Positions 3,220 through 21,439 of a stretch of DNA of 25,683 nucleotides are shown here, piece after piece (position 1 is the first letter of the stretch; each line of letters opens with the position of its first letter). The stretch spans positions 1 through 25,683 of the forward strand of contig JAGVFW010000017.1 in NCBI GenBank assembly GCA_020057405.1. The letters are read 5' to 3'. Position numbers and translations under genes: made by a program. Source of the stretch: an archaeon. GTDB taxonomy: Archaea > Micrarchaeota > Micrarchaeia > Norongarragalinales > UBA97. The notes below the pieces were generated by a model that saw only the letters and a list, made by a program, of their open reading frames with translations, ran no database searches and had not been told where the DNA came from.

Positions 3220-4602
3220 CTATTTTTTCGCCAGCGCTTTTCTCAACATTTCCTGCGCCTGAGTGGGCGAGGCCATGCCCTTTGTCTCGCGCATCACGAG
3301 GCCGGCCAGGAAGTGAAGCGCCTCGGGCTTGCCGCTGGCGAAATCCGCGGCAGGCTTGGGGTTCGCCGCAATCACTTTTTCGACAACGGCCAAGAGTTCG
3401 TCGCCGCCGTGGACGCCGAGCAGTCCCTGCTTTTGCGCATTCGCCCTCGGGGCCCTGCCATGGTCAAGGAATTCTATCAGCAGCTGCTCGCCTACCTTCT
3501 CGGTCACTTCGCTTGTGGAAAGCATTTGCAGCAATTCGCAGAGCAGTTCGGGCGTAAGCTTGCTTTGCTTAAATGACCGGTTGCGCCAGTTAAGCTGCTT
3601 TTTGAGCATTCCGCGCATGAGCCTCGCAGCGATTTTCGCATCCGTCTTCTTCGCGATTTTCTCAAACGCGTCGGCGTATTCCTGCTCCAGGCAAATGGCG
3701 TACGCTTCCTCTGCAGTGATGCCGTATTGCTTTGCAAGCCTGGCCCGCTTTTGGCGCGGCAGTTCCGGCATCTGCTTTGCAAGCTTCTCAACCATTGCAG
3801 GCGTAACGATGAGCGGGGGGATGTCGGGGTCAGGGAAGTACCGGTAGTCGTCGGCAGTCTCTTTCCTGCGCAGGCCGATTGTGATGCCGCGGCCCTCGTC
3901 AAAGTGGCGCGTTTCCTGCCCGTAAGTTACGCCGTGCTTGACGAGATTGCGCTGGCGTGTTTCCTCAAAAGACAGCGCCGTTACCACGCCCTTGAAGCTG
4001 TTGATGTTCTTCACTTCAATTCGGGGGTGGCCCTCGATGCTGATGTTTGCGTCAACACGCGTGCTGCCAGGCTCGACTCGCGCGGCGTTAAGGTATTCGA
4101 GGATTGCGCCCAGCTCCTCCAAAAACTGCCTCGCGTGCTCTGGGGAAGTGAAGTCCGGGTCGGTGACAATCTCGACTAGCGGAATGCCCGACCGGTTATA
4201 GTCAACTTCGCCAGTGCGCAAGTCGTAGCGGCCCGGATCCTCTTCGAGATGGCACTCGCGTATGCGCACTCCGGCCAACTCGCCGTCAATTGCGACAGGC
4301 AGTGAAGTTCGCTGGTAGCCGCTTGGCAGGTCTGGCCAAAAGTAGTGCTTGCGGCGGACGTAAATCGGCTCGTTCGTGACGACTTTGCAGCTTAGCGCCA
4401 ACGCAATTTGCACGACTTTCCCTAAAATCTCTTCATTCACCCCAGCTGGCTTTGAGCCAGGCTGGCCGCTGCACGTGGGGCACACTAGAGAATTTGCCGG
4501 CACCTCGAGGTACTTTTCAGTCGGGCAGCTGCAGAATAGCTTTGAGGCGCTTGCAAGCTGCACGTGCACTTCAGTGCCGATGACTGTCTTCAATTTGACC
4601 AA
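3220..4602 (-). CDS. gatB: Asp-tRNA(Asn)/Glu-tRNA(Gln) amidotransferase subunit B
   Basis: IGTEVHVQL..SKLFCSC, RKHYFWPDLPSGYQ, HLEEDPG, DYNRSGIPLVEIVT, RVDANIS, EVKNINS, DYRYFPDPD, YqeY-like tail. TTG start about 25 nt after minus-strand TTTTATT. Confidence 0.97.
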   Translation of the reverse strand: MVKLKTVIGTEVHVQLASASKLFCSCPTEKYLEVPANSLVCPTCSGQPGSKPAGVNEEILGKVVQIALALSCKVVTNEPIYVRRKHYFWPDLPSGYQRTSLPVAIDGELAGVRIRECHLEEDPGRYDLRTGEVDYNRSGIPLVEIVTDPDFTSPEHARQFLEELGAILEYLNAARVEPGSTRVDANISIEGHPRIEVKNINSFKGVVTALSFEETRQRNLVKHGVTYGQETRHFDEGRGITIGLRRKETADDYRYFPDPDIPPLIVTPAMVEKLAKQMPELPRQKRARLAKQYGITAEEAYAICLEQEYADAFEKIAKKTDAKIAARLMRGMLKKQLNWRNRSFKQSKLTPELLCELLQMLSTSEVTEKVGEQLLIEFLDHGRAPRANAQKQGLLGVHGGDELLAVVEKVIAANPKPAADFASGKPEALHFLAGLVMRETKGMASPTQAQEMLRKALAKK

Positions 4603-4690
4603 GGGAACTTTAGGCGGCGCAGCGAATAAAAGCCCGCGTGATTGGCGTGGGCGCAGTTAATATTATCCGGATGCCGCCTTAGTTTCGCTT
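4603..4690. promoter_or_regulatory. divergent promoter region gatB / sigma-70-like gene
   Basis: Minus-strand TTTTATT at 4625-4631. Plus-strand TTAATATTAT at 4657-4666, about 25 nt before ATG 4691. Confidence 0.55.
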
Positions 4691-5776
4691 ATGGTATCTT
4701 CGAGGCGCGCCCCGATTTCAAGTGAAACGGCACGGTTGCGGCGGGAGAAGGCGGACCGGTTCCACTGCTTTGCAGTTGACTTATACCGTCAAAAGGCACG
4801 GCTTCCAAACGCAAGCGCCCTGAAGGCTTTGGAAAACGCAGAACACCGCCGGATTGTCGAAGAGCAGGGTGGGCCAGAAAAAACTGCAGAGCTTCTGCAA
4901 ATGTGGAAGGCAAGCGTGTTGAACCAGTTGCCTGAAAATGACTTTAGCCTGGCCTTGGCCAAAGCCGGCGACAAGCAAGCAATGAACCGGGTTGTTAGCG
5001 CAAATCTGGGCCTGGCCGCAGTTGCCGTCAAAAATTTTTCGCGCCTTAGAGCCCCGCGCGGAATGACGCCGCAGGATGTCGGGCAATCGGCAATAATTCA
5101 CCTGCATGGGGCGGTCCAAAACTTCGATTTTACTCTCGGCTATCGATTTGGCACTTTTGCCATTACTCACATCTATAACAGCTTGTGTGGAGAATGGCGG
5201 GACGCGGGAATGATTCGCGTGCCACGCACCATGCGGGAAAAGCAGTCTAAACTGGAGAAAGCCGAAACCCAGCTCAAATTACGCCTTGGACGAAAGCCGT
5301 CGGACGACGAGGTTGCGGATTTGATGAAGATAATGCCAAGCGTGCTTGCCGAATTGCGGAACGCGAATACCGATCCCGCGTCGCTAGACGCCCCCGTGCC
5401 AAACCGGGGCAGAGGCACTGTTGAATTAGGCTCGCTAATTCCCGAAAAAACAAGCATTGGAGCTAATTTGGAAATCCGCGCCCTTACCGGGGCGTCCTTG
5501 CGCGGCCTTTCGACCCTGCCAGAACGGCAGCAGTTTGCAATACGGGCGATGACGCTTCTTCCGTATCCCGCGCCGTCAAGCGAGCTCGAGCACAAGCTAA
5601 ATGCGCTTATCAAAGACCGCGACGAGCCGCCAACCCAAGCCGAGGCAGCTTCCCACCTTGGCATTAGTGAGAGCCGATTCAGCCAATATTTCAGGGACGG
5701 CAAGACAAGATTGCGCAAGCTCATAACCGAACAAGGTTGGAATCCGTCCGAGCCAAAGAAAAAATCGAAGAAATAA
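4691..5776 (+). CDS. sigma-70 family RNA polymerase sigma factor-like protein (divergent, regions 2-3-4)
   Basis: Region 2: AKAGDKQAMNRVVSANLGL...QDVGQSAIIHLHGAVQNFDFTLGYRFGTFA. Region 3: MIRVP...LGRKPSDDEVADLM...SLDAPV. Region 4: LSTLPERQQFAI...TQAEAASHLGISESRFSQ...RLRK. Confidence 0.9.
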   Translation: MVSSRRAPISSETARLRREKADRFHCFAVDLYRQKARLPNASALKALENAEHRRIVEEQGGPEKTAELLQMWKASVLNQLPENDFSLALAKAGDKQAMNRVVSANLGLAAVAVKNFSRLRAPRGMTPQDVGQSAIIHLHGAVQNFDFTLGYRFGTFAITHIYNSLCGEWRDAGMIRVPRTMREKQSKLEKAETQLKLRLGRKPSDDEVADLMKIMPSVLAELRNANTDPASLDAPVPNRGRGTVELGSLIPEKTSIGANLEIRALTGASLRGLSTLPERQQFAIRAMTLLPYPAPSSELEHKLNALIKDRDEPPTQAEAASHLGISESRFSQYFRDGKTRLRKLITEQGWNPSEPKKKSKK

Positions 5777-5785
5777 TAGTGCGCC

Positions 5786-6484
5786 TTATCTCCCGCGTTC
5801 GACTGCAGTCCTGCTTTGCTCAAGCATGCGGTTGAGCCTGTCGTAGAGGCGCGCCGCCTGGGCCTCCGAAACAAGGAGACTCAGCTTGGTAACCGAATTG
5901 AATATGGCATAGACGTTGATTCCTAGCGCGTCTAGCTGGTTTGAGACGAAGGCTAGCACCCCCGGCGTCATGTTCGCCTCGCGGTCGTACTCGATAGTCA
6001 AAAGCGCGAGGGCGTCGTACTCAAGCAAAATGTCATCGCGGTCGACTTCAGCCTTAATCAGCGGGAGAAACTTCCTACCCGTCGCGACCATGATTTCCTC
6101 GCTTCGCTGCAGCACATACATCTTGTCGCCCTGATGCCAGTTGACGTACTTGCGTTCAAGCTCGATTATTTTCGAGTAAAGCTCGCTAGTGCGGCGCAAG
6201 TGCAAGAGAACCATGCCGGTCCTAAGGATGATGCGCGCCCCCGCAAGCACGCGCAGCGTCTCCGAGTTTTCGTCCTTGCCCGAGGCAGCCTTGGCGTAAC
6301 GGCGAACAGCCATGATGAGCGAGTCCATGCTCGCTTTTCTCCCGCCCATCTTCTCCTCGACCGCGGGCTTGATGAATCGGGCTAGCGCGCTGTAGTTGAT
6401 TAAATCGTTTTCCAGCGGAAGCTGCAGAAAACCCATTTCCTCCATAACTGCCGAGACGAGCTCGGCCACGCTGTCCTTTCCCAC
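5786..6484 (-). CDS. archaeal ACT-domain protein with N-terminal helical, possibly DNA-binding, domain
   Basis: SVAELV...LINYSALARFIKP...IMAVRRY N-terminus and C-terminal ACT-like TPGVLAFVSNQLDALGINV. GTG start 24 nt downstream of minus-strand TTTATA (6508-6513). Confidence 0.85.
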   Translation of the reverse strand: MGKDSVAELVSAVMEEMGFLQLPLENDLINYSALARFIKPAVEEKMGGRKASMDSLIMAVRRYAKAASGKDENSETLRVLAGARIILRTGMVLLHLRRTSELYSKIIELERKYVNWHQGDKMYVLQRSEEIMVATGRKFLPLIKAEVDRDDILLEYDALALLTIEYDREANMTPGVLAFVSNQLDALGINVYAIFNSVTKLSLLVSEAQAARLYDRLNRMLEQSRTAVERGR

Positions 6485-6507
6485 ACGACAATCACAACCG
6501 CAAGACC

Positions 6508-6529
6508 TATAAATGTCCCATTTGGGACA
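6508..6529 (-). promoter_or_regulatory. TATA box with abutting palindromic operator-like site
   Basis: TGTCCCA-TT-TGGGACA perfect 7-bp inverted repeat (6514-6529) directly upstream of minus-strand TTTATA (6508-6513). Confidence 0.6.
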
Positions 6530-6578
6530 CTATTTTTGGGTTTAAGTCTTTAGGACAACTAAGCGGTCACGACACAAG

Positions 6579-6587
6579 TTTTTAATA
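6579..6587 (+). promoter_or_regulatory. TATA-like box upstream of candidate ncRNA
   Basis: TTTTTAATA, ending about 23 nt before the G-run at 6610 that opens the closing stem. Confidence 0.5.
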
Positions 6588-6609
6588 ACCGGATGAAGTT
6601 GTCCTTTCT

Positions 6610-11881: not shown

Positions 11882-12793
11882 CTAAACCCACCTTAGCCCA
11901 AGCGAGATGACGAACCCAAGCGCAACCGCGGGCGCAAACGCCACGCTCTCGCGCACTTCCAACTCCCTTACTCCGAGCCCCTTTAACTTCGTTATCTCGG
12001 TCCTCGTGAGGCCGGCTGCACGCGAGGAGTCGGCAACAACATCGCCCCCCGGCCTTGTAAACGGCGAGATTTTCCCCCCAAGCGCAGACGAGAGCACAGC
12101 CGCCGCGGTAGGCCTCTTCCATACGACTGCTTTTCCCCCAACGCTTAGGATGGTGACGGCCGGAATGTCCCCCTCCCGCAATTCCGCCACTTTTTTGGTA
12201 CGCCGAAGCGCTGAGGCCGCAACTGCCGGAAACGCGAGGGAAAGAAAAGAGATTGCAAACGCGGCGGCAAAACCAACGGCAACGGAATTCAGCGCGCTCG
12301 ACTTAACCAAAAACGAAATTCCGCCTGCCACAACCGCCCCCGCGGCACCAGCCTTGCAAGCTTTGATGGAAACCGCCCCCCAGTCAAACTTGGCCCCAAG
12401 CGCGCGTCCCCCAAACGCAATTGCCGCAATGGGAAGCATCGCAATCACCGAGTTTAAGAAAAGCGTGGCAAAAGCAAACGGCGAGGGACCGCCCGACGCG
12501 ATTGCGTAGAATGCAGCCATTACGGTGAAGAACTTCGCGTCCCCGCCAGCCCACGCGCCAATCCGGTAGGCTGCGTAAGCGAATGCAAAAGCAATTGCAA
12601 CAGACGCGGCGAACCCCATTGACAGGTTACCCGTAAGATACGCCAGCGCGACCGCCGCGCAAGCAAACACGGCAGTCACGGCGTTTGGTACGCGCCGCTC
12701 CCGCAAGTCAGTGATAGTCGCAATGGCACCAAAGGCAACTGCGAGTGCAGTTGCAGCGCCGCTCTCAGCACCGTAAACGGGTATAGGAAACAT
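11882..12793 (-). CDS. A24 family prepilin peptidase (EppA/FlaK-like)
   Basis: ITDLRERRVPN and GAWAGGDAKF carry the two catalytic Asp. Multiple TM helices. Archaeal C-terminal domain ELREGDI...GLTRTEITKL...AFAPA. Confidence 0.92.
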   Translation of the reverse strand: MFPIPVYGAESGAATALAVAFGAIATITDLRERRVPNAVTAVFACAAVALAYLTGNLSMGFAASVAIAFAFAYAAYRIGAWAGGDAKFFTVMAAFYAIASGGPSPFAFATLFLNSVIAMLPIAAIAFGGRALGAKFDWGAVSIKACKAGAAGAVVAGGISFLVKSSALNSVAVGFAAAFAISFLSLAFPAVAASALRRTKKVAELREGDIPAVTILSVGGKAVVWKRPTAAAVLSSALGGKISPFTRPGGDVVADSSRAAGLTRTEITKLKGLGVRELEVRESVAFAPAVALGFVISLGLRWV

Positions 12794-12795
12794 CG

Positions 12796-12966
12796 TTACC
12801 TTACCAGCATGGCTATTGCCTCGGCCCGCTCGCTCCTAACGCTAGCAGCAACAGTGTCCGAAATTCCGCGAAGCTGCAGCACGAGGCTGACGGCAACGAC
12901 TAGGATGGCCAAGCCGACGGCCACCAAAAGAAGGTATTCGGTCGCAGCCTGCGCGCGGTCATCCAT
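12796..12966 (-). CDS. small class III signal peptide protein (56 aa pilin), absent from ORF track
   Basis: Translated by hand: MDDRA/QAATEYLLLVAVGLAILVVAVSLVLQLRGISDTVAASVRSERAEAIAMLVR*. Fills the gap between flanking genes. Confidence 0.85.
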   Translation of the reverse strand: MDDRAQAATEYLLLVAVGLAILVVAVSLVLQLRGISDTVAASVRSERAEAIAMLVR

Positions 12967-12972
12967 TATAGT

Positions 12973-13185
12973 TCACCCATAGCAAGTGCCGTTTGAAGTG
13001 CAGTTAAGCAAGTTGCGCAACTCGTGGGCATTGTCCGCCACCTGCCCGCCGATTTCGGGAACAACTGCCGAGCGCAGCACGATGACTACCGTGGCGACAA
13101 TCATCATCACGCCCGAAATGAGCAGCACGTACTCAAAGGCGCCCTGCGCTTTCTCTTCGCCAAGCATGGCAAAAACCCTTTTCAC
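12973..13185 (-). CDS. small class III signal peptide protein (pilin)
   Basis: EKA/QGAFEYVLLISGVMMIVATVVIVL. GTG 13185 overlaps the upstream TGA; alternative ATG at 13167. Confidence 0.85.
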   Translation of the reverse strand: MKRVFAMLGEEKAQGAFEYVLLISGVMMIVATVVIVLRSAVVPEIGGQVADNAHELRNLLNCTSNGTCYG

Positions 13186-13286
13186 GCAAGCACCCTCGTC
13201 TTTACAATGTACGCGACAGTCGCCACTAGCAGCACTGCCGCGCCCACCATGAGCAGGTACTCCATCGAAGTCTGCCCTTTTTTCAT
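13182..13286 (-). CDS. minimal 34-aa class III signal peptide protein (pilin)
   Basis: MKKG/QTSMEYLLMVGAAVLLVATVAYIVKTRVLA*. ATG overlaps the upstream stop (ATGA), and its TGA overlaps the next GTG. Confidence 0.8.
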   Translation of the reverse strand: MKKGQTSMEYLLMVGAAVLLVATVAYIVKTRVLA

Positions 13287-14224
13287 CCGCATCCCGCTAC
13301 GCTGCCGCCAAGCAATGCAAACCCGGCCGCTTTTCCGAATTCGAATACTGCGAGCGCTATTAAAACCATTAGGGGTGCCCGCGCCGCGTAGGCCCACCCG
13401 TTGCCCTCCCGCACGATGCCGGTCGCAACCGCGACAATCGCCGCAAGCACGGCGAGGAACACGGCAAGCAGCGAGTTTAGGAACACCAGGCTCGTTATCG
13501 CAGTGACCGGGCCAAGCGAGCACGAAATGCCTGCGCCAACGAAAGACACGATGTTTAGCGTGAAGCCGAAGATGAATGGCGCCAGGATCAGGGCGCTTGC
13601 GTTAAGGAACACCACGTGCATCGTCGTGCGCGTAGCCCGTTCGCGCCTGATGCGGGTAACATCGCGCGCGTCATCCGCAATCGCCGTCATGACGTCGGCA
13701 ACGCCGGCGCCCGCCCTCTTGGCGTCACTCACGATTGTCGCCACGCGCAAAAAGAGCTTCGAGCCGCTTGAGAGGGCCGCGTCGTGCATTGCTTCCTCGA
13801 AAGTCTTGCCCTTGCGCATGCGGTCGAGGGCTTGCGACAGCTCTTCACTAAGAGGGCCGTAATCATTGCGCGCCGCTTCCCCAAGCGCCGACTCGAGGGT
13901 CCCGCCCGCCTTTAGCACGATTGCCACGTGCTTTAGCGCGTCAGGCAAGTTGTCATCAATCGCCTGCACCCGCTCGTCACGCATGCTAATTGGGAGGGCG
14001 AAAAACAGCGAGAGGATCGCGAGGAAGACCACGATCCCGACGGCGAGGCCGTTGTCGCCAAACTGAGTTGGCACCAATATGGCTGAGGCCGAGGCTGCGG
14101 CAATTGCCGAGGCCGTTGCAAGCACCAAAAGCGCGACGGCGAAGGCAAACGGGCCTACCGGCATGCCCGACTTCTCGTAAAGCCGCCCGATTCCCTCAAA
14201 TGCCTTAACCGCCATTTTTCTCAC
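13283..14224 (-). CDS. type II secretion system F family / TadC-like pilus platform protein
   Basis: IDDNLPDALKHVAIVLKAGGTLESAL...YGPLSEEL...GKTFEEAM; multiple TM helices. Confidence 0.92.
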   Translation of the reverse strand: MRKMAVKAFEGIGRLYEKSGMPVGPFAFAVALLVLATASAIAAASASAILVPTQFGDNGLAVGIVVFLAILSLFFALPISMRDERVQAIDDNLPDALKHVAIVLKAGGTLESALGEAARNDYGPLSEELSQALDRMRKGKTFEEAMHDAALSSGSKLFLRVATIVSDAKRAGAGVADVMTAIADDARDVTRIRRERATRTTMHVVFLNASALILAPFIFGFTLNIVSFVGAGISCSLGPVTAITSLVFLNSLLAVFLAVLAAIVAVATGIVREGNGWAYAARAPLMVLIALAVFEFGKAAGFALLGGSVAGCG

Positions 14225-15309
14225 GCAGTTGGCTCAATTGACTTTATGAATGCAAGGATGCCTACCGACAAAAGCGCGATTGCAGCAAACGCCAGTGCCA
14301 CCAGCACCGGACTGAAGCTGCCGCCCAAAAGCGGCAATTGCACTACTGAGGCGACAATCGTGAGCACGACGGGTGTCACGACCGCGACCATGGTAAAGAC
14401 GATGGCGACCAAGTTCAGCTTTTCCGTAAAGTCGCGGATGCGCATGCGCGACTCGTACGACGCGTCATCAGCAATTCCCGAAATCACGTCCGCAAGCGAG
14501 CCCCCCGTCCTAAGCGAGCGGTTGATTTGCGTCACCGCCTGGCGCAGGCCATTCGATTTCGTCCGCTCGTGCATTGCCTCAAGGGCATCCTCGATGCCCA
14601 TCGCCTCTAAAGACAAAAGAAACTTGCGGATTTCAGTGCTAAGGGCGCCGTAACCCCCCTGCTCCACGCTCTCCATCGCCCGCTGGAACGGCACGCCCGC
14701 GCGCACCTGCGTTGCCAAGTGCCGCAGGGCAAAAGGCAGTTCCCTGTCGATTTGCGCCGCGCGCTTCTTAGCAATCCTACCCGGATAGACTAAGAGCAAA
14801 AGATTCGACGCGGTGAAAGCGACGACGCCTATTGAGATTGACAAAAGAACGGAGTTAAGCGGTTGCACTTTTCCAAACGCCGTGAGCGCAAGCGCAATGA
14901 GCGTGACCGCGGTGCCAAGGGCCGCCGACGCGGTCGTCGCTATTGCCATGTACGCGCTTTGGTTGAGCGTGAGGCCGCTTGCGGGCAAGTCGCGCCGCAG
15001 TCCGCGCGCCGAAGGCATCCTTGAGAAGAGCCGCGCGAGGGGGGCGAGGATGAGCTTGAGCGCGGAGTAGGCGGCCGCGGCATTCCTGATTCCGGCGCCC
15101 GGGTTTTTTCCAACGTCAATCCTGTAAAAATCCCATTCGGCCACGCCGTATTTTATGCGCGCGGCCTGGGGGCTCTCGACCTTACCTCCAGCCGTCATTC
15201 GCTTGGCAACCTCGTCAGCACGCTCTAGCTCGCCCCTGCGCGCCTGGGTCACATCGTAGGAATCGCCCTTCTCTATGGCATCGCGAATGCGTTGCAGTCT
15301 ACCGGGCAT
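14221..15309 (-). CDS. type II secretion system F family / TadB-like pilus platform protein
   Basis: IDRELPFALRHLATQVRAGVPF...YGALSTE...TGGSLADVI. Start probably ATG 15309, just after the ATPase stop (ORF track extends to 15372). Confidence 0.9.
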   Translation of the reverse strand: MPGRLQRIRDAIEKGDSYDVTQARRGELERADEVAKRMTAGGKVESPQAARIKYGVAEWDFYRIDVGKNPGAGIRNAAAAYSALKLILAPLARLFSRMPSARGLRRDLPASGLTLNQSAYMAIATTASAALGTAVTLIALALTAFGKVQPLNSVLLSISIGVVAFTASNLLLLVYPGRIAKKRAAQIDRELPFALRHLATQVRAGVPFQRAMESVEQGGYGALSTEIRKFLLSLEAMGIEDALEAMHERTKSNGLRQAVTQINRSLRTGGSLADVISGIADDASYESRMRIRDFTEKLNLVAIVFTMVAVVTPVVLTIVASVVQLPLLGGSFSPVLVALAFAAIALLSVGILAFIKSIEPTA

Positions 15310-15323
15310 GCCATCGGCTCCTT

Positions 15324-16880
15324 TCAGGCCTTGCCCTGTTTTTTGAGCGCGTAATTCTGCGTCACGCGGCACACTTCGGAGAGTTCGCGCACGCCTTTTG
15401 CGTTAAGGTCGCGAAGAACTTGCTCCCGTGCCTCTAGTTCCGCCAGAACCGAGTCGCGCGTGCCGCCCGCGTACTTGGCAAGCATTTGCACGTAATTGGA
15501 TTGCGCTCCCGTAGGGCCGATGGTGTCCTTGACCGGGTCCCACTCGTAGAGCACTTGCATGCTTGGCATCGCGCCGGGTTCGGAGGGGACGAGTTCGGCA
15601 ATTTCGCTCACGCGCCTGATGAGGCCCTTGCGCCTGTCGTAGATGCGTTGCTGCATGATGATGAAGTTGAGCGCTGAAAGCATGATGGTCGGCACGCTCA
15701 TCGGCGGACTCGTGAGGCGAGAGATCGTTTCGCGCGCGCTGTTTGAGTGAAGCGTACCGCACACTCCCCTGTGTCCGGTGTTCATGGCGCTAAAGAGCGT
15801 GTAGGCCTCCTCGCCGCGGATTTCGCCGATGATGATCCTATCCGGTCTCATGCGCAGCGCGTTTTTCAAAAGCGTGTTGGCGTCAATCTCGCCAGTGCCC
15901 TCGACCCCGGGAGGCCGCACTTCAAAGCGCACCCAGTGGTCAAAAGGCAGCTTGATTTCTGCAATGTCCTCGATGCTAACGAGCCGCTCGTAGTTGGGCA
16001 CAAAGCTTGTAATCGAGTTAAGCGTAGTTGTCTTTCCGCTTGCCGTCCCGCCTGCGATGATGAGGTTTGCCGGCATCGCGCCCATGCCCTCCGAAATGAG
16101 CCAGAGGAACGCGGCGATCTCGTAGTTAAGCGTGCCGTTGTTGATGAGGTCAATGATGCTGATCGGGTCGGTCCGAAACTTCCGTAGCGTGATGGTCGCG
16201 CCGTTTAGGCTCACAGGCGACAGCGTGGCGTTCACGCGCGTGCCGTTTGGCAGCCTCGCGTCAAGGAGCGGCGACTGCAAGTCAATGCGCCTGCCGATGT
16301 TGCGGGCGATTCGATCAATGAGGTCGGTGATGTCCCGGTCCTCATAAAAGACGATGTTCGTCTTCATCATCTCATACTTTCGGTGGAAGACGTAGACGGG
16401 CTTGCCAGTGCCGATTACCATCACTTCCTCTAGCGCGTCGTCGGAAACGAGCGGGTCAAGCAGGCTGAAGCCCACCATCTCGCGAACGACTGCCTTGGCG
16501 TAGAATTCTTTCGAGTTTGCCGGGATTTTTAGCTCGGGATAGGCGTCGATGATTTCAAGAACGCGGGCGACGTACCTGTCGCGCGCATCAGATTTGGTCT
16601 CAAAGAGCGCCTCATCCACGTTGATTACGCGCGCAGCAACGTCAAGGATGGCGTCGATGAGCTCCTTTTCCTCTCCCCGGTAGCGTGGTACGGGCACTTC
16701 ATAAAGCAGCAGGGGCTCGCCCCTGGCTTTGTATACGCTTGCCTCTCCGTAAGAGTCAACTAGTATGCGCTCGCCGGAGGCGTCTGGAGTTCCAGCCGAC
16801 GCAGGCTGGACGCTTGGAGCTACCTGCCGTGCAGGCGATTCCATCTTGGCTTTTCGCAAAAGATCATAGAGAACGGGCAT
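15324..16880 (-). CDS. type IV pilus assembly ATPase (CpaF/TadA/VirB11 family)
   Basis: Walker A GGTASGKTT, Asp box SIEDIAE, Walker B LRMRPDRIIIGEIRG, His box TGH...TLHSNS. Confidence 0.96.
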   Translation of the reverse strand: MPVLYDLLRKAKMESPARQVAPSVQPASAGTPDASGERILVDSYGEASVYKARGEPLLLYEVPVPRYRGEEKELIDAILDVAARVINVDEALFETKSDARDRYVARVLEIIDAYPELKIPANSKEFYAKAVVREMVGFSLLDPLVSDDALEEVMVIGTGKPVYVFHRKYEMMKTNIVFYEDRDITDLIDRIARNIGRRIDLQSPLLDARLPNGTRVNATLSPVSLNGATITLRKFRTDPISIIDLINNGTLNYEIAAFLWLISEGMGAMPANLIIAGGTASGKTTTLNSITSFVPNYERLVSIEDIAEIKLPFDHWVRFEVRPPGVEGTGEIDANTLLKNALRMRPDRIIIGEIRGEEAYTLFSAMNTGHRGVCGTLHSNSARETISRLTSPPMSVPTIMLSALNFIIMQQRIYDRRKGLIRRVSEIAELVPSEPGAMPSMQVLYEWDPVKDTIGPTGAQSNYVQMLAKYAGGTRDSVLAELEAREQVLRDLNAKGVRELSEVCRVTQNYALKKQGKA

Positions 16881-16910: not shown

Positions 16911-18008
16911 TTACTGGTTTGTCTTGAGGTTAACGGTTATCGGGATAGATATTCCCGGGCTGTTAAGGCACGTGCCGGTAATCTGGAGCGAGCCAAAGTA
17001 AGACTCCGTATCAGGCAATGATGGGGGCGTGATGCGAAGCAAGATGTAGTTTTTGTCGCCAGGCGCAATCGCGTTTCTCCCGTTTTTGCTATCTCCGAGC
17101 ACTTCGATGTTAAAGCAACTTTTGCCGTCGGAACCGCACGCGCTCTGAAGATTTCCATCGAGGACAAGCCGGGTCGCGAAGTTCTCAAGCGTTACCGTGC
17201 CGGTATTTCGCACCGTAATCCGCCGCGCCTTGTCAGAGCCAGGCGTGTACGAGATTTCCGACTCGCTCGTCTCAAGCTGCAGGGGCTTTCCGACTGAACC
17301 GCCTATCTCGACTTTCTTTGTAGTGCCCTTGACCCTGATGGCGCCGCTAAGCGCTACGCCGCTGTCGGAACCCGAAGTGTCTGGAAGTTCTGCAAAAACG
17401 CTAAAGTTGGCAGACTCATTGGGGCCAATCACCCGAGAGCTTCCTTGAACTGCGAAGTAGCGGCTGAAATCAGTGTCGCCCTCGGAAACCAGTTCTGCAG
17501 AGAACGGGTCATCGCCAAAATTCGTGACCTCGAGGTAGAACCGGTCCCGGCAGGCGCTTGCGAAAGACTGCGGGATGTCGGTCGCGGTAATTTCGATGCC
17601 GTTTTTCCGCTCCACCTGCACTATGATGGTGTTTGCGCCTTCTGTAAGCAGCACGGGAGTGCTGGCAATGTTGTAGCCGCTTCCGGCCTCAACCGAAATG
17701 AACATCTGCGTCTGCGTCGGCAGGCCGTCAAAAACCGCCGTGCCGCCTGCTGTAGTGAGCTGCGTTGTGCCAACCGACTTTCCGGACGCGTCTGTAAAGT
17801 ACACCTGCGCGCTGTCAAGCGCCCCCCCGTCAAGCTCGCTGACTGTCACGATGACTGAACCGGGCTTCGGTGCCAAAAAGAAAAAATAATACGCGGCTAC
17901 AATCACGACGAGGGCCGCAACAATGTAGATGAGATACGGCTTAACCGGCGCTAGGGCTGCCTTGGCCTTCTCTAAAATGCCCTCTTCCTCTCCAATGTTG
18001 TAGTCCAT
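16911..18008 (-). CDS. membrane-anchored surface protein with beta-sandwich (Ig-like / carboxypeptidase-regulatory-like) domains
   Basis: N-terminal TM (YLIYIVAALVVIVAAYYFFF). Beta-rich motifs LEVTNFGD, ITVRNTGTVTL, IAPGD. TATA (TTATAAA) about 26 nt upstream. Confidence 0.8.
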   Translation of the reverse strand: MDYNIGEEEGILEKAKAALAPVKPYLIYIVAALVVIVAAYYFFFLAPKPGSVIVTVSELDGGALDSAQVYFTDASGKSVGTTQLTTAGGTAVFDGLPTQTQMFISVEAGSGYNIASTPVLLTEGANTIIVQVERKNGIEITATDIPQSFASACRDRFYLEVTNFGDDPFSAELVSEGDTDFSRYFAVQGSSRVIGPNESANFSVFAELPDTSGSDSGVALSGAIRVKGTTKKVEIGGSVGKPLQLETSESEISYTPGSDKARRITVRNTGTVTLENFATRLVLDGNLQSACGSDGKSCFNIEVLGDSKNGRNAIAPGDKNYILLRITPPSLPDTESYFGSLQITGTCLNSPGISIPITVNLKTNQ

Positions 18009-18059: not shown

Positions 18060-19880
18060 TCACTTCGCCTTGCCTATCCCGAGCGCCTTTTTCACGTCCT
18101 CTGGCGCGGCAACGAGCCTCAGCTCCCGCATTGCAGCCTCAAAGCTGCCGGCGGCTTTGACCAGCTGGCTGACTTTCTCAAACGGCAGCCGCGTGAGGCC
18201 GGCAGCAACGACGACTTTTTGCGCCGGCAGTCCCGACTCCGCCATCCGCCTTAAGAGTTCCGGCATCGCCGCCTTGACGATTTTTTCTTCAGACAAAAGC
18301 TTGAACGCGGCCATGATTTCAGTTTGCGGCACGCCGTCTATTGCAACGCCCTCGCGGCGCAGTGCGGTTGTCGTCTGCAAGAGAACTCCGGCTGCGTAGC
18401 CGGGCTCGATTTCCCTAAGCCCGACTACTTTTTCAAACAATTCGGCGTGCTCGCTTGTCACAAGCTCGCGCGCAATCGCGGGCTGCAGTCCCGCCTTCTC
18501 GTAAGCTTTCGCCTGTTCCTCAAATGACGGAGGCAGCGCATGTTGGAGGGCCGAGAGTTTCTTTGAGTCAACTGCAATCGGGGGCACGTCAGTCTCAGGA
18601 TACATCCTTGCCGAGCCGGGCAGCGGCCTCATGAACTTGCTGATGTTGCCAGCCGCTTTGCGCGTTTCCTTAGGTACGCCGTCAAATGCCGCAAGCGCGC
18701 GCTTTTGCACAGCCTCAAGCCCGGCGACCGTGCGCGCTTCCGAGTCCGAAAAACAGGCCGCCCACGCGTCGCGCGAGCTGCAGGAAAGCGAGTTTGCAAC
18801 CGCTTGCGCCTCGGCCGGCCCGATGCCGTACTTGCTTAAGTCCTCGTCCGAGTGGATGATGCCCGTAACCCCTGCGTGTGCCTTTGCGTAATCGCTTAGT
18901 TCGGTCCCAAAGCGGTGGCCGGGCATCAGCTCTTTTCCTAAAAGCCCGGCAAACCCCTCGAGCTTGACTGCCATCACCTGCTGGCGTTTATCAAGCGCGC
19001 TTCGCACAAGCTTGGATTGCGTACTGCTAAAGACGGCGGCAACGCTTTTGAAACCCGACTCGCTTTTAGGCGCACCCCGCTTCTTCAACTCGTCGCGAAT
19101 CCACAAAAGCCACTCTTGCCTCGAGCCCTCATTCTCCACAATCGCCTCAAGCGATGCGAGTTCCTGCACGCCCTTAATCTCGCAGCGCGTGCCACCCGCG
19201 ACGCTCACGTTAAGGTCCTGCCTTATCGTGCCGATGCCGCGCTTGACTAGCCCCCTGGCACTGCGCAAAAGCATTCCGATTGCCTCCGCCGTTTCCCGCG
19301 CCTGCTTTCCGCTAGTGATTTCGGGCGCAGTCGCAATCTCGATTAACGGCACGCCCGACCGGTCAAGCCTATAAGACGCGGTTGCGGCCTTCTGCTCAAC
19401 GATGCCGGCGCTTTCCTCCTCAAGGCAAATAGTGGGAATGGTAATCACGCCGCTTTGCGTCTTCACCCTCCCGTTGACCGCGATTAAGGCCGTCCTCTGG
19501 AAGCCCGAAGGCGCACTGCCGTCAACTACGGTCTTTCGCATGAACCGCACCTGGTCAAGCACGCGTGCCTCAAGCATGAGCGAGACTTTAAGCGACGTTT
19601 CAACCGCCTCGGGGCTGGGCTCTCGGGGCGGCTCGTCGTCTGCCTCGACAAGGCAGGTGTTCTCGTCAAAGAGCAGGTATGTGAATTCGCGTGTCCTGCC
19701 GGCCTCAAAAGCCGCCGAAGGGTCGACTTGCCCAAGCTCACCAGCGACCGCCCTGAGCCTTCGCCTCATCGTGGCGACGGGCTCGGCGTCATCGCGCGTC
19801 TCGTTCGGACACCTGCAGAAAAGTTTTGTCGGCGATGCGAGCCGCTGGTGAATTTCAAGCCCGCATTTGATTCTAGCCAT
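18060..19880 (-). CDS. gatE: Glu-tRNA(Gln) amidotransferase subunit E
   Basis: CGLEIHQRL..TKLFCRC, RRLRAVAGELGQVD, MRKTVVDGS.PSGFQRT, LDRSGVPLIEIAT, KRGIGTIRQDLNVS, AspRS-like insertion (GIIHSDE), RPLPGSARMYPETD. Confidence 0.97.
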   Translation of the reverse strand: MARIKCGLEIHQRLASPTKLFCRCPNETRDDAEPVATMRRRLRAVAGELGQVDPSAAFEAGRTREFTYLLFDENTCLVEADDEPPREPSPEAVETSLKVSLMLEARVLDQVRFMRKTVVDGSAPSGFQRTALIAVNGRVKTQSGVITIPTICLEEESAGIVEQKAATASYRLDRSGVPLIEIATAPEITSGKQARETAEAIGMLLRSARGLVKRGIGTIRQDLNVSVAGGTRCEIKGVQELASLEAIVENEGSRQEWLLWIRDELKKRGAPKSESGFKSVAAVFSSTQSKLVRSALDKRQQVMAVKLEGFAGLLGKELMPGHRFGTELSDYAKAHAGVTGIIHSDEDLSKYGIGPAEAQAVANSLSCSSRDAWAACFSDSEARTVAGLEAVQKRALAAFDGVPKETRKAAGNISKFMRPLPGSARMYPETDVPPIAVDSKKLSALQHALPPSFEEQAKAYEKAGLQPAIARELVTSEHAELFEKVVGLREIEPGYAAGVLLQTTTALRREGVAIDGVPQTEIMAAFKLLSEEKIVKAAMPELLRRMAESGLPAQKVVVAAGLTRLPFEKVSQLVKAAGSFEAAMRELRLVAAPEDVKKALGIGKAK

Positions 19881-19897
19881 TTTCTCATTCTTCCCCT

Positions 19898-21436
19898 TTA
19901 GTGCCTGAAGTGCCTATGCCCGCTAAACGCCATCGCAATCCCGCGCTCGTTGCAGGCGGCGACGACTTCGCCGTCGCGGATGCTGCCGCCAGGCTGGATG
20001 ATTGCGGCGACCCCAGCGTCTGCAGCGGAGTCGATTGCGTCGCGGAACGGAAAGAACGCCTCGCTTGCCATCGAGCTGCCGGCGACTTCAAAGCCGTTTT
20101 TTCTCGCGCGCTCTACTGCAATCCTAACTGAATCCACGCGGCTGGTCTGCCCGATGCCAAAGCCGATTGCCTGGCCCGACACTGCAAGCACGATTGCGTT
20201 TGACACGCAGTGCTTGACGTACTTTAGCGCGAATTCCATCGCAGCCACCTGGCCGCCCGACGGCTTGACCTTCGTCGGGAACGACAGTTCCCCCTCCTCG
20301 CAGCAGTCGCTCTCCTGCACGAGGACACCGCCGAGAATGCTCCGGTACTCGACTTCCTTTTGCCGTGGTGCGGCAAAGAAGTTCGACGCGTCAAGCACGC
20401 GCAGGTTCTTTTTTTCAGACAAGACTTCAATCGCCTGCGGCTCAAAGCCGGGTGCAATCACGACTTCAAAGAAGCGTTCGGCAATGGCTCCCGCAGCGCT
20501 GGCGTCAAGGGGCCTGTTGAAAGAGACGATGCCGCCAAATGCGGAGGTGGGGTCGCAGGCGAGCGCCTTTGCGTACGCCTCTACGGGCGTCTTGCCCGTC
20601 GCTCCGCCGCAGGCGTTTGCGTGCTTTAGTATCGAGCAGCTGCACTCGCTCCCCCAGTCCTCCAGTGCGAGCTTGAGTGCAAACGACGAGTCAAGAAAAT
20701 TGTTGTAGCTCATCTCCTTTCCCTGCAGTTGCCTCATGCCGGAAACGCTGGGCCCTGCTCCTACCCCAGATGCGGCGTAAAGCGCACCCCTCTGGTGCGG
20801 GTTCTCGCCATAACGCAGTTCCTGCACTTTCTCAAGCACCTCGACAACCCGTTTTTCCGGAAAGCCGGCGCCGAAGTGTCGTGCAATCGCCGAGTCGTAA
20901 GCGGCAGTAAGCGCGAAAGCGATTTTGGCAAACTCCCTTCTAGTCGCGTTGGCGACATGGCCGCCGTTGCGCAGCTCCTCAACCACCGTGGCATACTGCG
21001 ACGATGAAGTGACGATGGCAACGTCTTCCCAGTTCTTTGCAGCTGCGCGGGTGAGTGCAACCCCGCCAATGTCAATGAGCTCGATAAGCTCGTCCTCGCT
21101 TGCTCCCGCCGCTATGCCCGCCTCAAACGGGTAGAGGTTGACGACGACGATGTCGATTGCCTTTACCCCGTTTCGCGCGACTTCGTCCTCGTGAGATGCA
21201 GACCCGCGCTTGTATAAGATGCCCGCGTGGATTCGCGGATGAAGCGTTTTGACGCGTCCCCCGATTAATTCTGCCGCGCCAGTGTAGTCGCTTGCTTCAG
21301 TGACCGGCAAGCCCGCGCTTCTCAAGACTGCCGCAGTGCCCCCTGTTGCCATGAGCTCGAAGCCCCGCGCCGATAGCTCGGCTGAAAACTCGGCGACTCC
21401 CGCCTTGTCGTGGACGCTTATTAGTGCAACCGGCAT
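19898..21436 (-). CDS. purH: bifunctional AICAR formyltransferase / IMP cyclohydrolase
   Basis: LISVHDK, GGRVKTLHP, IDIGG, LRYGENPHQ, SYNN, KHANACG, SAFGG, AFFPFRD, QPGGSIRD, RHFRH. Confidence 0.97.
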   Translation of the reverse strand: MPVALISVHDKAGVAEFSAELSARGFELMATGGTAAVLRSAGLPVTEASDYTGAAELIGGRVKTLHPRIHAGILYKRGSASHEDEVARNGVKAIDIVVVNLYPFEAGIAAGASEDELIELIDIGGVALTRAAAKNWEDVAIVTSSSQYATVVEELRNGGHVANATRREFAKIAFALTAAYDSAIARHFGAGFPEKRVVEVLEKVQELRYGENPHQRGALYAASGVGAGPSVSGMRQLQGKEMSYNNFLDSSFALKLALEDWGSECSCSILKHANACGGATGKTPVEAYAKALACDPTSAFGGIVSFNRPLDASAAGAIAERFFEVVIAPGFEPQAIEVLSEKKNLRVLDASNFFAAPRQKEVEYRSILGGVLVQESDCCEEGELSFPTKVKPSGGQVAAMEFALKYVKHCVSNAIVLAVSGQAIGFGIGQTSRVDSVRIAVERARKNGFEVAGSSMASEAFFPFRDAIDSAADAGVAAIIQPGGSIRDGEVVAACNERGIAMAFSGHRHFRH

Positions 21437-21439
21437 TTT

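What the first reader, a model, noticed from the sequence alone, without database searches (positions are those of the whole stretch)
4691..5776. Intact bacterial-type sigma-70 factor homolog embedded in an archaeal chromosome
Seen: a 361-aa ORF with sigma-70 regions 2, 3 and 4 in canonical order (GDKQAMNRVVSANLGL; AVQNFDFTLGYRFGTFA; IRVP; LGRKPSDDEVA; SLDAPV; LPERQ; LGISESRFSQ). It lies 88 bp from gatB and 9 bp from an archaeal ACT-domain gene, with no integrase or transposase nearby, and has a TATA-like box about 25 nt upstream like its neighbours. Established: archaea initiate transcription with TBP/TFB/TFE and need no sigma; sigma region 2 binds the beta' clamp helices, which have an archaeal RNAP counterpart used by TFE and Spt4/5. 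Inference: a domesticated sigma could act on archaeal RNAP, work as an RNAP-independent DNA-binding regulator, or be an effector aimed at a bacterial partner. It could also be a recent transfer now decaying.
Basis: partly seen in the sequence, partly recalled or inferred. Interest (0 to 1): 0.9.

Follow-up and report, generated by a model that had tools for sequence, protein, structure and literature searches.

The report
Derived sigma-70 homolog in a Micrarchaeota genome
A small symbiotic-type archaeon carries an intact, selectively maintained copy of the bacterial promoter-recognition protein (sigma factor) although it has no bacterial RNA polymerase; such genes have been reported in related archaea, but nobody knows what they do there.

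Summary
Window 4691-5776(+) encodes a 361-aa sigma-70 family protein. Pfam finds regions 2, 3 and 4 in order, and the AlphaFold model's best PDB matches are all bacterial sigma factors.

The contig is archaeal (NurA, GatD/E, Pelota, PibD, Elp3). The 1.22-Mb genome has TBP, TFB and only an archaeal RNA polymerase. A genome of the same class is titled Candidatus Micrarchaeota.

It is not a chimera. An independent metagenome contig (L018) has the same gene order.

It is a single-gene insertion. gatB and the 232-aa neighbour are directly adjacent in three genomes of the same family.

It is not decaying. dN/dS is 0.26, its composition is host-like, and a TATA box sits where this genome's promoters have one.

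It shares an 18-32-residue region-4 insertion (PYPxP...E...N..I) only with other Micrarchaeota sigma genes. None of 139 other homologs has it. Substitution trees leave its position unresolved.

Many near-universal core-binding and promoter-contact residues are replaced, identically in all three orthologs.

Sigma-70 genes in DPANN archaea were reported in 2021, so this is a new variant of a known oddity. My best guess at function, which is inference, is a sigma-fold regulator acting inside the archaeon rather than a canonical sigma.

The parts
4691..5776 (+). Sigma-70 family gene, 361 aa (P0001). The start ATG is conserved in L018.
4658..4666 (+). TATA-like box TTAATATTA, -33 to -25 from the ATG. 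L018 has TTTTTATTT at the same place.
   Evidence: genome-wide A/T peak at -30 to -26 over 540 genes
4691..4966 (+). N-terminal region (residues 1-92): helical, modelled at lower confidence, with no significant similarity outside its own orthologs.
4967..5236 (+). Sigma region 2 (residues 93-182; Pfam r2 at 113-172). Derived residues S133, A134, H137, H160, Y162, N163 and G167 replace near-universal E, G, G, W, R, Q and R.
5237..5470 (+). Sigma region 3 (residues 183-260; Pfam r3 at 183-243), including the SLDAP segment.
5471..5731 (+). Sigma region 4 (residues 261-347; Pfam r4 at 307-343), with a helix-turn-helix.
5549..5623 (+). Region-4 insertion (about residues 287-311; PYPAPSSELEHKLNALI), modelled as an extra helix. 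It is shared only with other Micrarchaeota sigma genes.
3220..4602 (-). gatB, the left flank of the insertion. It is divergent from the sigma gene.
4622..4650 (.). Block conserved between the window and L018 in the gatB-sigma spacer. It is probably the gatB promoter (inference).
5786..6484 (-). 232-aa conserved hypothetical gene, the right flank. It lies directly next to gatB in genomes G002, G003 and G005.

Best explanation
What it is: a resident, selectively maintained sigma-70 family gene of a Micrarchaeota (DPANN) archaeon, not contamination and not a decaying transfer.

How it got there: it belongs to a sigma lineage that circulates within Micrarchaeota and is marked by an extra helix inserted in region 4. 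It arrived as a single gene, with an archaeal promoter, between the 232-aa gene and gatB in the recent ancestor of this organism and of the L018 organism.

What changed: it then evolved fast. It replaced many residues that bacterial sigmas use to hold the beta-prime clamp helices and to read and melt the -10 and -35 elements. It has since been kept under purifying selection.

How it most likely works (inference, not shown): as a sigma-fold DNA-binding or transcription regulator inside the archaeon. It would use its region 3/4 helix-turn-helix units and a remodelled region 2, rather than acting as a canonical promoter-specificity subunit of a bacterial polymerase.
For: Identity and fold:
- Pfam r2, r3 and r4 are found in order.
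- 64 PDB sequences match at E<=0.001 and the 60 listed are all sigma factors, best SigA at 4e-18.
- The AF2 model has pLDDT 85.8, and its 49 listed Foldseek matches (top ranks, listing runs to rank 50) are all sigma-factor chains.

Archaeal host:
- Window genes include NurA, GatB, Pelota, PibD with Arc_PepC, GatE, GatD and an Elp3-type gene.
- The genome has TBP and TFB and only a sub-cut-off, archaeal-type match to bacterial rpoC.
- The record title of a genome of the same class names Candidatus Micrarchaeota.

Not a chimera: the independent contig L018 has NurA, hyp217, gatB, sigma, hyp232, hyp202, hyp97 and Pelota in the same order.

Insertion:
- gatB and hyp232 are 65-86 bp apart in G002, G003 and G005.
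- In G001 a different 608-aa ORF sits there.

Maintained:
- dN/dS is 0.26 at dS 0.89. Five housekeeping-type neighbours give 0.08-0.15 and two short hypothetical genes give 0.22 and 0.47.
- Tetranucleotide correlation with the genome is 0.81, against a mean of 0.76 for random 1086-bp pieces.
- The TATA box lies at the genome's usual position.

Micrarchaeota lineage:
- The spacer between R285 and position 319 is 33 residues in 3 of 3 orthologs and 33-47 in 12 of 29 Micrarchaeota or subfamily rows. It is 8-20 in 139 of 139 other homologs. The motif is alignable.
- The C-terminal part has 7 of its 8 best local hits among those rows.

Derived residues:
- Positions 133, 134, 137, 160, 162, 163, 167, 327, 328 and 331 differ from residues held by 93-153 of 157 other homologs.
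- The derived residue is the same in all three orthologs at the seven region-2 positions (133, 134, 137, 160, 162, 163, 167) and at 328; positions 327 and 331 vary among the three.
Against: - No experiment or expression data exist for this gene, so the mechanism is inference only.
- Substitution-based trees do not settle the origin. FastTree puts the three orthologs outside the Micrarchaeota group. The mixture-model quick tree puts them inside it, with SH-aLRT 92 with P0022 and 79 for the group. A constrained tree with the FastTree partners has a log-likelihood 10.7 higher, p-AU 0.65.
- Regions 2 and 3 find their best local hits among other homologs of unknown taxonomy.
- The organisms of P0022 and P0025 are unknown.
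- Only three orthologs exist, so 'fixed' derived residues rest on a small sample.
- dS near 0.9 is close to saturation, so dN/dS is rough.
- Deeper members of the Micrarchaeota group keep canonical sigma residues (for example Q132 in 15 of 17, G134 in 16 of 17, R167 in 15 of 17). That would fit a polymerase-bound role better than a free regulator.
Confidence: 0.55

Rival explanations
1. Rival 1: it is a working partner of the archaeal RNA polymerase. Region 2 would dock on the Rpo1 clamp coiled-coil, the site used by TFE and Spt5. The protein would then direct or modulate initiation at a subset of promoters, as a hybrid sigma/TBP-TFB system.
For: - The archaeal clamp coiled-coil is homologous to the beta-prime clamp helices and is highly conserved in this group.
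- Micrarchaeota sigma genes are frequent. Sigma70_r2 scores over the cut-off in 25 of 68 genomes of the order, with up to 6 matches per genome.
- Deeper members keep region 2.2 and 4.2 residues in genomes where no bacterial beta-prime was found. None of the 5 sigma-bearing genomes checked, nor G000, scored over the cut-off.
- The gene is under purifying selection.
Against: - In the window's own protein the region 2.2 motif is altered: E133S, G134A, G137H.
- No direct evidence of binding exists.
- TBP and TFB are present and the genome's promoters look ordinary for an archaeon.
Confidence: 0.17
2. Rival 2: it is cargo of a mobile element or virus of DPANN archaea. It would serve that element, or a defence function, and was left at an integration hotspot.
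For: - The same gatB/hyp232 junction holds a different insert in G001. That insert is a 608-aa ORF with XRE-type helix-turn-helix hits.
- The distribution among relatives is patchy.
- Two DPANN viral genes annotated as rpoS, one in a prophage, were reported in PMC12647753 (passage read).
- There is a weak match to the defence-associated sigma MzaA.
Against: - Only a single gene was inserted, with no integrase, transposase or phage genes among the 28 window ORFs scanned.
- No terminal repeats were convincing.
- No close relative turned up in viral contigs or phage records. Identity was at most 31%.
- The MzaA scores are far below family level: 52 bits against a cut-off of 800, and 26 bits in PADLOC.
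- Neighbours of other Micrarchaeota sigma genes are ordinary metabolic genes.
Confidence: 0.15
3. Rival 3: it is a canonical sigma for a bacterial RNA polymerase. The contig might be bacterial contamination, or the protein might be delivered to a bacterial partner.
For: The full sigma fold and region order are present.
Against: - The contig and its synteny are archaeal and are reproduced in L018.
- Genome contamination is 0.27%.
- No bacterial beta-prime was found.
- Near-universal core-binding and -10/-35 residues are replaced.
- No anti-sigma domains were found.
- Known Micrarchaeota hosts are archaea (recalled, not from a call).
Confidence: 0.04
4. Rival 4: it is a neutral remnant of a transfer, on its way to loss.
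For: - It is the fastest-evolving of the large genes at the locus. Amino-acid identity to L018 is 67.5%, against 85-88% for gatB, NurA, Pelota and hyp232.
- Canonical residues have been lost.
Against: - Full-length frames are intact in three orthologs.
- dN/dS is 0.26.
- Most of the derived residues are the same in all three orthologs.
- Composition is ameliorated and the promoter and start codon are conserved.
Confidence: 0.05

Closest known systems
Bacterial group 1/2 sigma-70 factors (SigA/RpoD, RpoS)
   Same: It has the same fold and the same order of regions 1.2-like, 2, 3 and 4. These factors give the best PDB sequence hits (SigA 4e-18) and the best fold hits.
   Different: - Identity to anything outside its three orthologs is at most 38% among 1.84 billion representatives.
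- It scores 81 bits against a cut-off of 384 for the RpoD/SigA subfamily model.
- The tryptophan pair of region 2.3 (W433/W434 in E. coli numbering, recalled) is T/K-H here.
- Region 4.2 reads S-E-S-R-F-S-Q where the consensus is T-R-E-R-V-R-Q.
- Region 4 carries an extra helix.
- The host genome has no bacterial polymerase.
Group 3 sigma factors (SigB/SigF/SigG, FliA)
   Same: Its size is similar, it lacks the tryptophan pair, and it has a WRD-x-G-x-IRVPR segment resembling the group 3 pattern. Model TIGR02980 scores E 9e-22.
   Different: It scores 77.8 bits against a cut-off of 234. No SpoIIAB/RsbW-type anti-sigma domain is found, and STAS occurs only inside a 546-aa frame.
Sigma-70 genes of DPANN archaea (family fam00359 of PMC8204110)
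   Same: Both are sigma-70 family genes on archaeal contigs, alongside TBP, TFB and TFE, with no anti-sigma factor found. The paper raises the same open question about function (passage read).
   Different: The paper reports them as most prevalent in Woesearchaeota, whereas this one is in Micrarchaeota. Whether this protein falls in fam00359 could not be checked because supplements are closed. The region-4 insertion, the locus history and the derived residues were not in the passage I read.
rpoS-annotated genes of DPANN viruses (PMC12647753)
   Same: They are divergent sigma homologs linked to DPANN archaea, one of them in a prophage (passage read).
   Different: No viral relative of this protein was found, and there are no phage genes beside it.
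MzaA, the sigma of the MZA anti-phage system
   Same: A sigma-70 domain match: NCBIfam E 4.5e-14 and PADLOC E 6e-7.
   Different: It scores 52 bits against a cut-off of 800. It is half the length of MzaA and no partner genes lie nearby.

Membership tests
Sigma-70 family (Pfam clan of Sigma70_r2/r3/r4) | Region 3 domain | tested here: met
   PF04539 scores 43.9 bits against a cut-off of 25.3, at residues 183-243.
Sigma-70 family (Pfam clan of Sigma70_r2/r3/r4) | Region 2 domain | tested here: met
   Marginal. PF04542 scores 23.0 bits against 24 in hmmscan and 25.3 bits, over the cut-off, in the genome search. Full-length sigma models align across it with E down to 7e-23.
Sigma-70 family (Pfam clan of Sigma70_r2/r3/r4) | Region 4 helix-turn-helix domain | tested here: inconclusive
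   PF04545 scores 19.6 bits against 24.1 (E 6e-4) at residues 307-343. The model shows helices at 278-288, 298-307, 316-323 and 327-347 with pLDDT near 98. An insertion splits the domain.
Sigma-70 family (Pfam clan of Sigma70_r2/r3/r4) | Sigma fold over the whole length | tested here: met
   AF2 pLDDT is 85.8. Foldseek lists 49 chains (listing runs to rank 50), all sigma-factor chains, with E from 1e-11 to 5.5e-9.
Functional bacterial sigma factor | Near-universal residues of regions 2.2, 2.3/2.4 and 4.2 | tested here: not met
   Window residue against the residue in the 157 other homologs:
- S133 against E in 121 of 157
- A134 against G in 146 of 157
- H137 against G in 153 of 157
- H160 against W in 137 of 157
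- G167 against R in 139 of 157
- S328 against E in 103 of 157
- S331 against R in 115 of 157

Functional bacterial sigma factor | A bacterial core RNA polymerase in the same cell | tested here: not met
   The TIGR02386 search of G000 gave only a 297-bit archaeal-type match against a cut-off of 963.5. The genome is 90.6% complete.
Functional bacterial sigma factor | Binding to the polymerase and promoter-specific initiation | not testable with these tools
   This needs biochemistry.
Group 1 sigma (RpoD/SigA) | Score over the NCBIfam subfamily cut-off | tested here: not met
   TIGR02997 scores 81.3 bits against 384.5.
Group 3 sigma (SigB/F/G) | Score over the NCBIfam subfamily cut-off | tested here: not met
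   TIGR02980 scores 77.8 bits against 234.35.
Micrarchaeota sigma lineage with the region-4 insertion (defined here) | Insertion of 18-32 residues with the motif PYPxP...E...N..I between regions 4.1 and 4.2 | tested here: met
   The spacer is 33 residues in the window protein. It is 33-47 in 12 of 29 Micrarchaeota or subfamily rows and 8-20 in 139 of 139 others.
Micrarchaeota sigma lineage with the region-4 insertion (defined here) | Placement inside that group in a sequence tree | tested here: inconclusive
   It falls inside the group in the mixture-model quick tree and outside it in FastTree. The AU test does not reject the outside placement.
DPANN sigma-70 family fam00359 (PMC8204110) | Membership in the authors' protein cluster | not testable with these tools
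   The supplementary table is closed. Only the text passage was read.
MzaA (MZA defence system) | Score over the equivalog cut-off, and partner genes present | tested here: not met
   NF041931 scores 52.2 bits against 800 and PADLOC gives 26 bits. No defence families were hit by the two flanking hypothetical genes scanned with PADLOC.

The most novel reading that the evidence does not exclude
Micrarchaeota would keep a private, diversified lineage of sigma-derived factors, marked by an extra helix in region 4, that work with the archaeal RNA polymerase. Region 2 would sit on the Rpo1 clamp coiled-coil and the remodelled region 4 on the Rpo2 flap/wall or on DNA. A bacterial-style promoter-selection layer would then sit on top of TBP/TFB initiation. 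The window's gene would be a fast-evolved, specialised member of that lineage.
Probability: 0.15. Interest if true: 0.9.

Novelty: new variant of a known kind. Interest (0 to 1): 0.55.

Why it matters
Sigma factors and the TBP/TFB system are textbook markers that separate bacterial from archaeal transcription. Sigma genes kept under selection in archaea that lack a bacterial polymerase mean one of two things. Either the sigma fold has been re-used for another job, or a sigma can work with an archaeal polymerase. The second would change how the two initiation systems are compared.

This locus offers a clean test case:
- one gene with known insertion boundaries;
- an ortholog for comparison;
- a signature insertion that defines a Micrarchaeota-wide group from which more canonical members could be chosen for biochemistry.

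Tried and rejected
Co-fold: I folded sigma residues 50-185 with residues 1-345 of this genome's own RpoA, both supplied as alignments. The tool returned no verdict (score 0.02 against a mark of 0.32, controls not run). This counts neither for nor against binding.

Sequencing runs for window 3800-6600: none was listed and no RNA holder was listed. Read coverage across the junctions and expression could therefore not be examined, and read laying was not used.

Close relatives in species-representative genomes: none with P0001. In metagenome contigs only L018 was found.

Viral origin:
- The phage collection gave 95 records, all below 60% identity; the 15 listed range from 24.7 to 31.1%.
- Viral contig scans with A3, P0022 and P0001 found nothing.

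Target-site duplication or terminal inverted repeats around the insertion: only short two-copy matches of the kind expected by chance. The alignment of the junction with relatives is uninformative.

RNA genes: no Rfam family and no tRNA in the window.

Anti-sigma partners:
- no HATPase_c_2 match;
- no zf-HC2 match;
- one STAS match, inside a 546-aa frame, which I did not examine further.

N-terminal 'FHxFA' similarity to P0022, seen in alignment A2: not significant when tested alone, with no hit at E<=10. I dropped it as evidence.

Phylogeny:
- I first read the FastTree result as placing the window clade with P0014, P0005, P0065 and P0079.
- I then read the mixture-model tree as placing it with P0022.
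- The AU test showed that the free quick search had missed a better tree and that neither placement is rejected. I therefore rest the affiliation on the insertion, not on the trees.
- Rows left out of the 61-row tree: 4 very long Micrarchaeota rows, and 125 of the 147 remaining representative or other hits that were neither window clade, Micrarchaeota/subfamily rows nor the 10 nearest FastTree rows. The 22 kept were sampled at random.
- The 'other' rows are the best hits to P0001, not to the Micrarchaeota proteins, and their organisms are unknown.

Literature searches: I found no functional study of an archaeal sigma homolog. Only the two presence reports cited here turned up. Supplementary tables and figures of PMC8204110 and PMC12647753, which may list or place such genes, were not seen.
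Full report
THE OBSERVATION

Pfam finds three sigma domains in canonical order:
- Sigma70_r3: 43.9 bits, cut-off 25.3.
- Sigma70_r2: 23.0 bits, cut-off 24. In the six-frame genome search it scores 25.3 bits, over the cut-off.
- Sigma70_r4: 19.6 bits, cut-off 24.1.

NCBIfam sigma models align across residues 65-285 with E down to 7e-23, yet none comes near its family cut-off. The RpoD/SigA subfamily scores 81 bits against 384, and SigB/F/G scores 78 against 234.

Against PDB sequences, 64 match at E<=0.001 and the 60 listed are all sigma factors, the best being mycobacterial SigA at 4e-18. An AlphaFold2 model built on a 116-row alignment has mean pLDDT 85.8. Its 49 listed Foldseek matches in the PDB (the listing runs to rank 50) are all sigma-factor chains, with E from 1e-11 down to 5.5e-9. 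The protein is therefore a sigma-70 family member by sequence and by fold.

THE HOST IS AN ARCHAEON

- Of 28 window ORFs scanned with Pfam, the recognisable ones include NurA, GatB, a Pelota (TIGR00111 over its cut-off), an archaeal prepilin peptidase with the Arc_PepC domain, two T2SSF and one T2SSE pilus genes, GatE, GatD, PurH, an Lrp/AsnC regulator and an Elp3-type radical SAM protein. None is an integrase or transposase.
- The window is the whole of contig C3 of a 1.22-Mb, 17-contig genome, 90.6% complete and 0.27% contaminated.
- That genome has TBP and TFB.
- A search with the bacterial beta-prime model finds only an archaeal-type largest subunit, at 297 bits against a cut-off of 963.5.
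- A genome that the genome tool places in the same class (G352) carries a record title naming it a Candidatus Micrarchaeota archaeon. The window's organism is therefore a member of the DPANN group Micrarchaeota.

NOT A CHIMERA, AND WHERE THE GENE CAME TO LIE

An independent 9,994-bp metagenome contig (L018) has the same order: NurA, hyp217, gatB, sigma, hyp232, hyp202, hyp97, Pelota. Its sigma is 67.5% identical in protein. By comparison, gatB, hyp232, Pelota and NurA are 85-88.5% identical.

In three genomes of the same family (G002, G003, G005), gatB and hyp232 lie directly side by side, 65-86 bp apart. In the genome of the same genus (G001), a different gene fills that gap. It is a 608-aa ORF with XRE-type helix-turn-helix matches.

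The simplest history is that a single sigma gene was inserted at the hyp232/gatB junction in the common ancestor of the window organism and the L018 organism, and that this junction accepts foreign genes. I found no convincing target-site duplication or terminal repeats.

THE GENE IS MAINTAINED

- A Nei-Gojobori comparison of the window with L018 gives dN/dS 0.26 for sigma at dS 0.89. The values are 0.08-0.11 for NurA, Pelota, hyp232 and gatB, 0.15 for hyp217, and 0.22 and 0.47 for two short hypothetical genes. dS is close to saturation, so these are rough figures.
- The gene's tetranucleotide make-up correlates with the genome at 0.81. The mean for 300 random pieces of equal length is 0.76, with sd 0.13.
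- The ATG is conserved in L018, and both contigs have an A/T box at the same distance. The window has TTAATATTA at -33 to -25.
- Over 540 genes of this genome with at least 60 nt of upstream spacer, A/T content peaks at -30 to -26 from the ATG (0.58-0.64 against about 0.48 elsewhere). Runs of six A/T cluster in the same bin, 347 against 19-145 in the other bins. This is the pattern of archaeal TATA boxes with leaderless messages.

The sigma gene thus carries a host-type promoter in the host's usual place. 'A recent transfer now decaying' is not supported.

HOW ISOLATED THE PROTEIN IS

Among 1.84 billion representative proteins, only its own cluster scores below 1e-30. The next hit is 6e-21 and identities are 28-42%. 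In total 19,925 proteins score below 0.001. The word-indexed search found two orthologs, P0003 at 74% and P0004 at 68%, the latter being the L018 protein.

SIGMA GENES ARE COMMON IN THIS ARCHAEAL GROUP

- Sigma70_r2 scores over its cut-off in 25 of 68 genomes of the window's order, and in 10 of the 22 that are at least 90% complete. There are up to six matches per genome.
- A profile of the window protein and its nearest full-length relatives (A3) matches at E<=1e-10 in 27 of 401 sampled genomes of the phylum.
- Five of these sigma-bearing genomes were searched with the bacterial beta-prime model, and none scored over the cut-off.
- The window's own genome holds a second sigma gene. It is a 194-aa ECF-type protein on contig C9 that passes the TIGR02937 cut-off, 91 bits against 42.9.
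- Neighbours of six other Micrarchaeota sigma genes are ordinary genes: an HD phosphohydrolase, a sugar isomerase, a TIM-barrel enzyme, a metallophosphoesterase and a DEAD-box helicase. There is no shared partner gene.

This matches and extends the one published report I could find. PMC8204110 (one passage read) states that sigma-70 genes (its family fam00359) occur in DPANN genomes, are especially prevalent in Woesearchaeota, are not explained by mis-binning, and come without anti-sigma factors, so that their role is unclear. PMC12647753 (one passage read) adds two DPANN viral genes annotated as rpoS, one in a prophage.

WHERE THE WINDOW'S SIGMA BELONGS

Substitution trees do not settle this.
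- FastTree on 190 rows puts all 27 Micrarchaeota ORFs plus P0022, P0025 and P0036 in one group (support 91) and the window's three orthologs elsewhere, next to long branches.
- A site-heterogeneous quick tree on 61 rows puts them with P0022 (SH-aLRT 92), inside a 20-row group made only of Micrarchaeota and subfamily rows (support 79).
- A tree constrained to the FastTree grouping has a log-likelihood 10.7 higher than that free tree, p-AU 0.65. The position is therefore unresolved.
- Taken piece by piece, regions 2 and 3 find their best local hits among other homologs of unknown origin. For the C-terminal part (residues 261-361), 7 of the 8 best hits are Micrarchaeota or subfamily rows. The N-terminal 92 residues find nothing.

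A rare structural character is clearer.
- I counted the residues between the conserved arginine of region 4.1 (R285) and the first helix of region 4.2 (position 319).
- The count is 8-20 in all 139 other homologs that have both anchors, and 15 in 100 of them.
- It is 33 in all 3 window orthologs, and 33-47 in 12 of 29 Micrarchaeota or subfamily rows.
- The inserted segment is alignable, with a shared pattern of PYPxP, then an acidic residue, then N..I. It occurs in proteins of G352 (another order) and of G008, G029, G030 and G034 (the window's order).
- In the model it forms an extra, confidently predicted helix at residues 298-307.

On this character, the window's sigma is a member of a sigma lineage that is particular to Micrarchaeota, not a separate recent import from a typical bacterium. 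Two caveats apply. The organisms of P0022 and P0025 are unknown, and the comparison set consists of best hits to the window protein.

HOW FAR IT HAS MOVED FROM A WORKING BACTERIAL SIGMA

I compared the window clade (3 rows), the 17 rows that grouped with it, 13 other Micrarchaeota rows and 157 other homologs, column by column.

The 17-row group mostly keeps the near-universal residues:
- D129 in 16 of 17
- Q132 in 15 of 17
- E133 in 12 of 17
- G134 in 16 of 17
- F153 in 16 of 17
- R167 in 15 of 17
- R329 in 13 of 17
- Q332 in 13 of 17

The window clade has replaced many of them:
- S133, where 121 of 157 others have E
- A134, where 146 have G
- H137, where 153 have G
- T or K at 159 and H at 160, where 119 and 137 have W
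- Y162
- N163
- G167, where 139 have R
- In region 4.2, S328, and S, Y or N at 331, where most have E and R

The derived residue is the same in all three orthologs at positions 133, 134, 137, 160, 162, 163, 167 and 328; positions 159, 327 and 331 vary among them.

By my recollection of the E. coli literature (not from a call), these positions lie in three places. One is region 2.2, which holds the beta-prime clamp helices. One is regions 2.3/2.4, which read and melt the -10 element. One is the recognition helix for the -35 element.

The branch leading to the window clade is long, 1.54 changes per site, while the clade itself is under purifying selection. That pattern fits a change of function followed by conservation better than it fits decay.

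MECHANISM

What is shown: the gene, its fold, its archaeal setting, its insertion history, its constraint, its promoter, and its kinship by the region-4 insertion.

What is inferred: its function.
- I think it most likely acts inside the archaeon as a sigma-fold DNA-binding or transcription regulator that no longer works as a canonical sigma (confidence about 0.55).
- The main rival is that it, or at least its more canonical Micrarchaeota relatives, works on the archaeal polymerase through the clamp coiled-coil. That coiled-coil is homologous to the bacterial sigma docking site and is almost invariant in this group. I give this about 0.17.
- A role as cargo of a DPANN mobile element or virus gets about 0.15. 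It is supported by the hotspot and the published viral rpoS-like genes. It is weakened by the lack of any viral relative or element genes nearby.
- A canonical bacterial role, contamination and neutral decay are each unlikely.
- The single co-fold I could run gave no verdict and is listed only under what was tried.

COMPARISON AND NOVELTY

The protein works like nothing that has been tested. It is a member of the sigma-70 superfamily by fold and domains, but it fails the tests for groups 1 and 3 and for a functional bacterial sigma. It is an instance of the known but unexplained class of DPANN sigma-70 genes.

New here, as far as my six literature searches show:
- the Micrarchaeota setting and frequency;
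- the signature region-4 insertion;
- the single-gene insertion history;
- the evidence of constraint;
- the set of derived residues.

I rate it a new variant of a known kind, with interest 0.55. The finding is real and puzzling, but the headline was already in print and the function remains open.

Noticed in passing
G000:C9:975-1559 (-) (locus L010): A second sigma gene in the same genome. It is a 194-aa ECF-type protein that passes the TIGR02937 sigma70-ECF cut-off (91.1 bits against 42.9). No zf-HC2 anti-sigma domain was found in the genome.
   Followed up: partly
G000:C11, locus L012:505-3948 (-) (P0166): The largest RNA polymerase subunit is a single 1147-aa ORF covering both the A' and A'' parts. 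Open frames of 1137-1167 aa occur in G008, G030 and G059 of the same order. G352, in another order, has the usual split (842 + 370 aa). From memory, the A'/A'' split is regarded as general in archaea.
   Followed up: partly
G001:C6, locus L056:1388-3214 (-): In the genome of the same genus, the gatB/hyp232 junction holds a different insert. It is a 608-aa ORF with two XRE/MqsA-type helix-turn-helix matches and no sigma similarity. The junction therefore looks like a hotspot for gene insertion.
   Followed up: partly
window 5786-6484 (-): This 232-aa gene is conserved and syntenic across the family (47-87% identity) but has no family assignment. Pfam gives only a sub-threshold DUF7523 hit and NCBIfam gives nothing. 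It is not recognisable as an ACT-domain protein.
   Followed up: partly
window 18060-22771 (-) and 3220-4602 (-): The contig carries both GatD/GatE (archaeal Gln-tRNA amidotransferase), with purH lying between gatE and gatD, and a separate GatB.
   Followed up: no
G352 contigs C48, C32, C30 (loci L082, L080, L081); G034 (several contigs): Some Micrarchaeota genomes hold several sigma paralogs: three insertion-bearing ones in G352 and up to six Sigma70_r2 matches in G034. Some have long N-terminal extensions (567, 597 and 739 aa) and a region 1.2 match.
   Followed up: partly
window 11882-16880 (-): A cluster for an archaeal type IV pilus-like apparatus: a prepilin peptidase with the Arc_PepC domain, two T2SSF-family membrane proteins and a T2SSE ATPase. 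A CARDB-like protein follows at 16911-18008.
   Followed up: no
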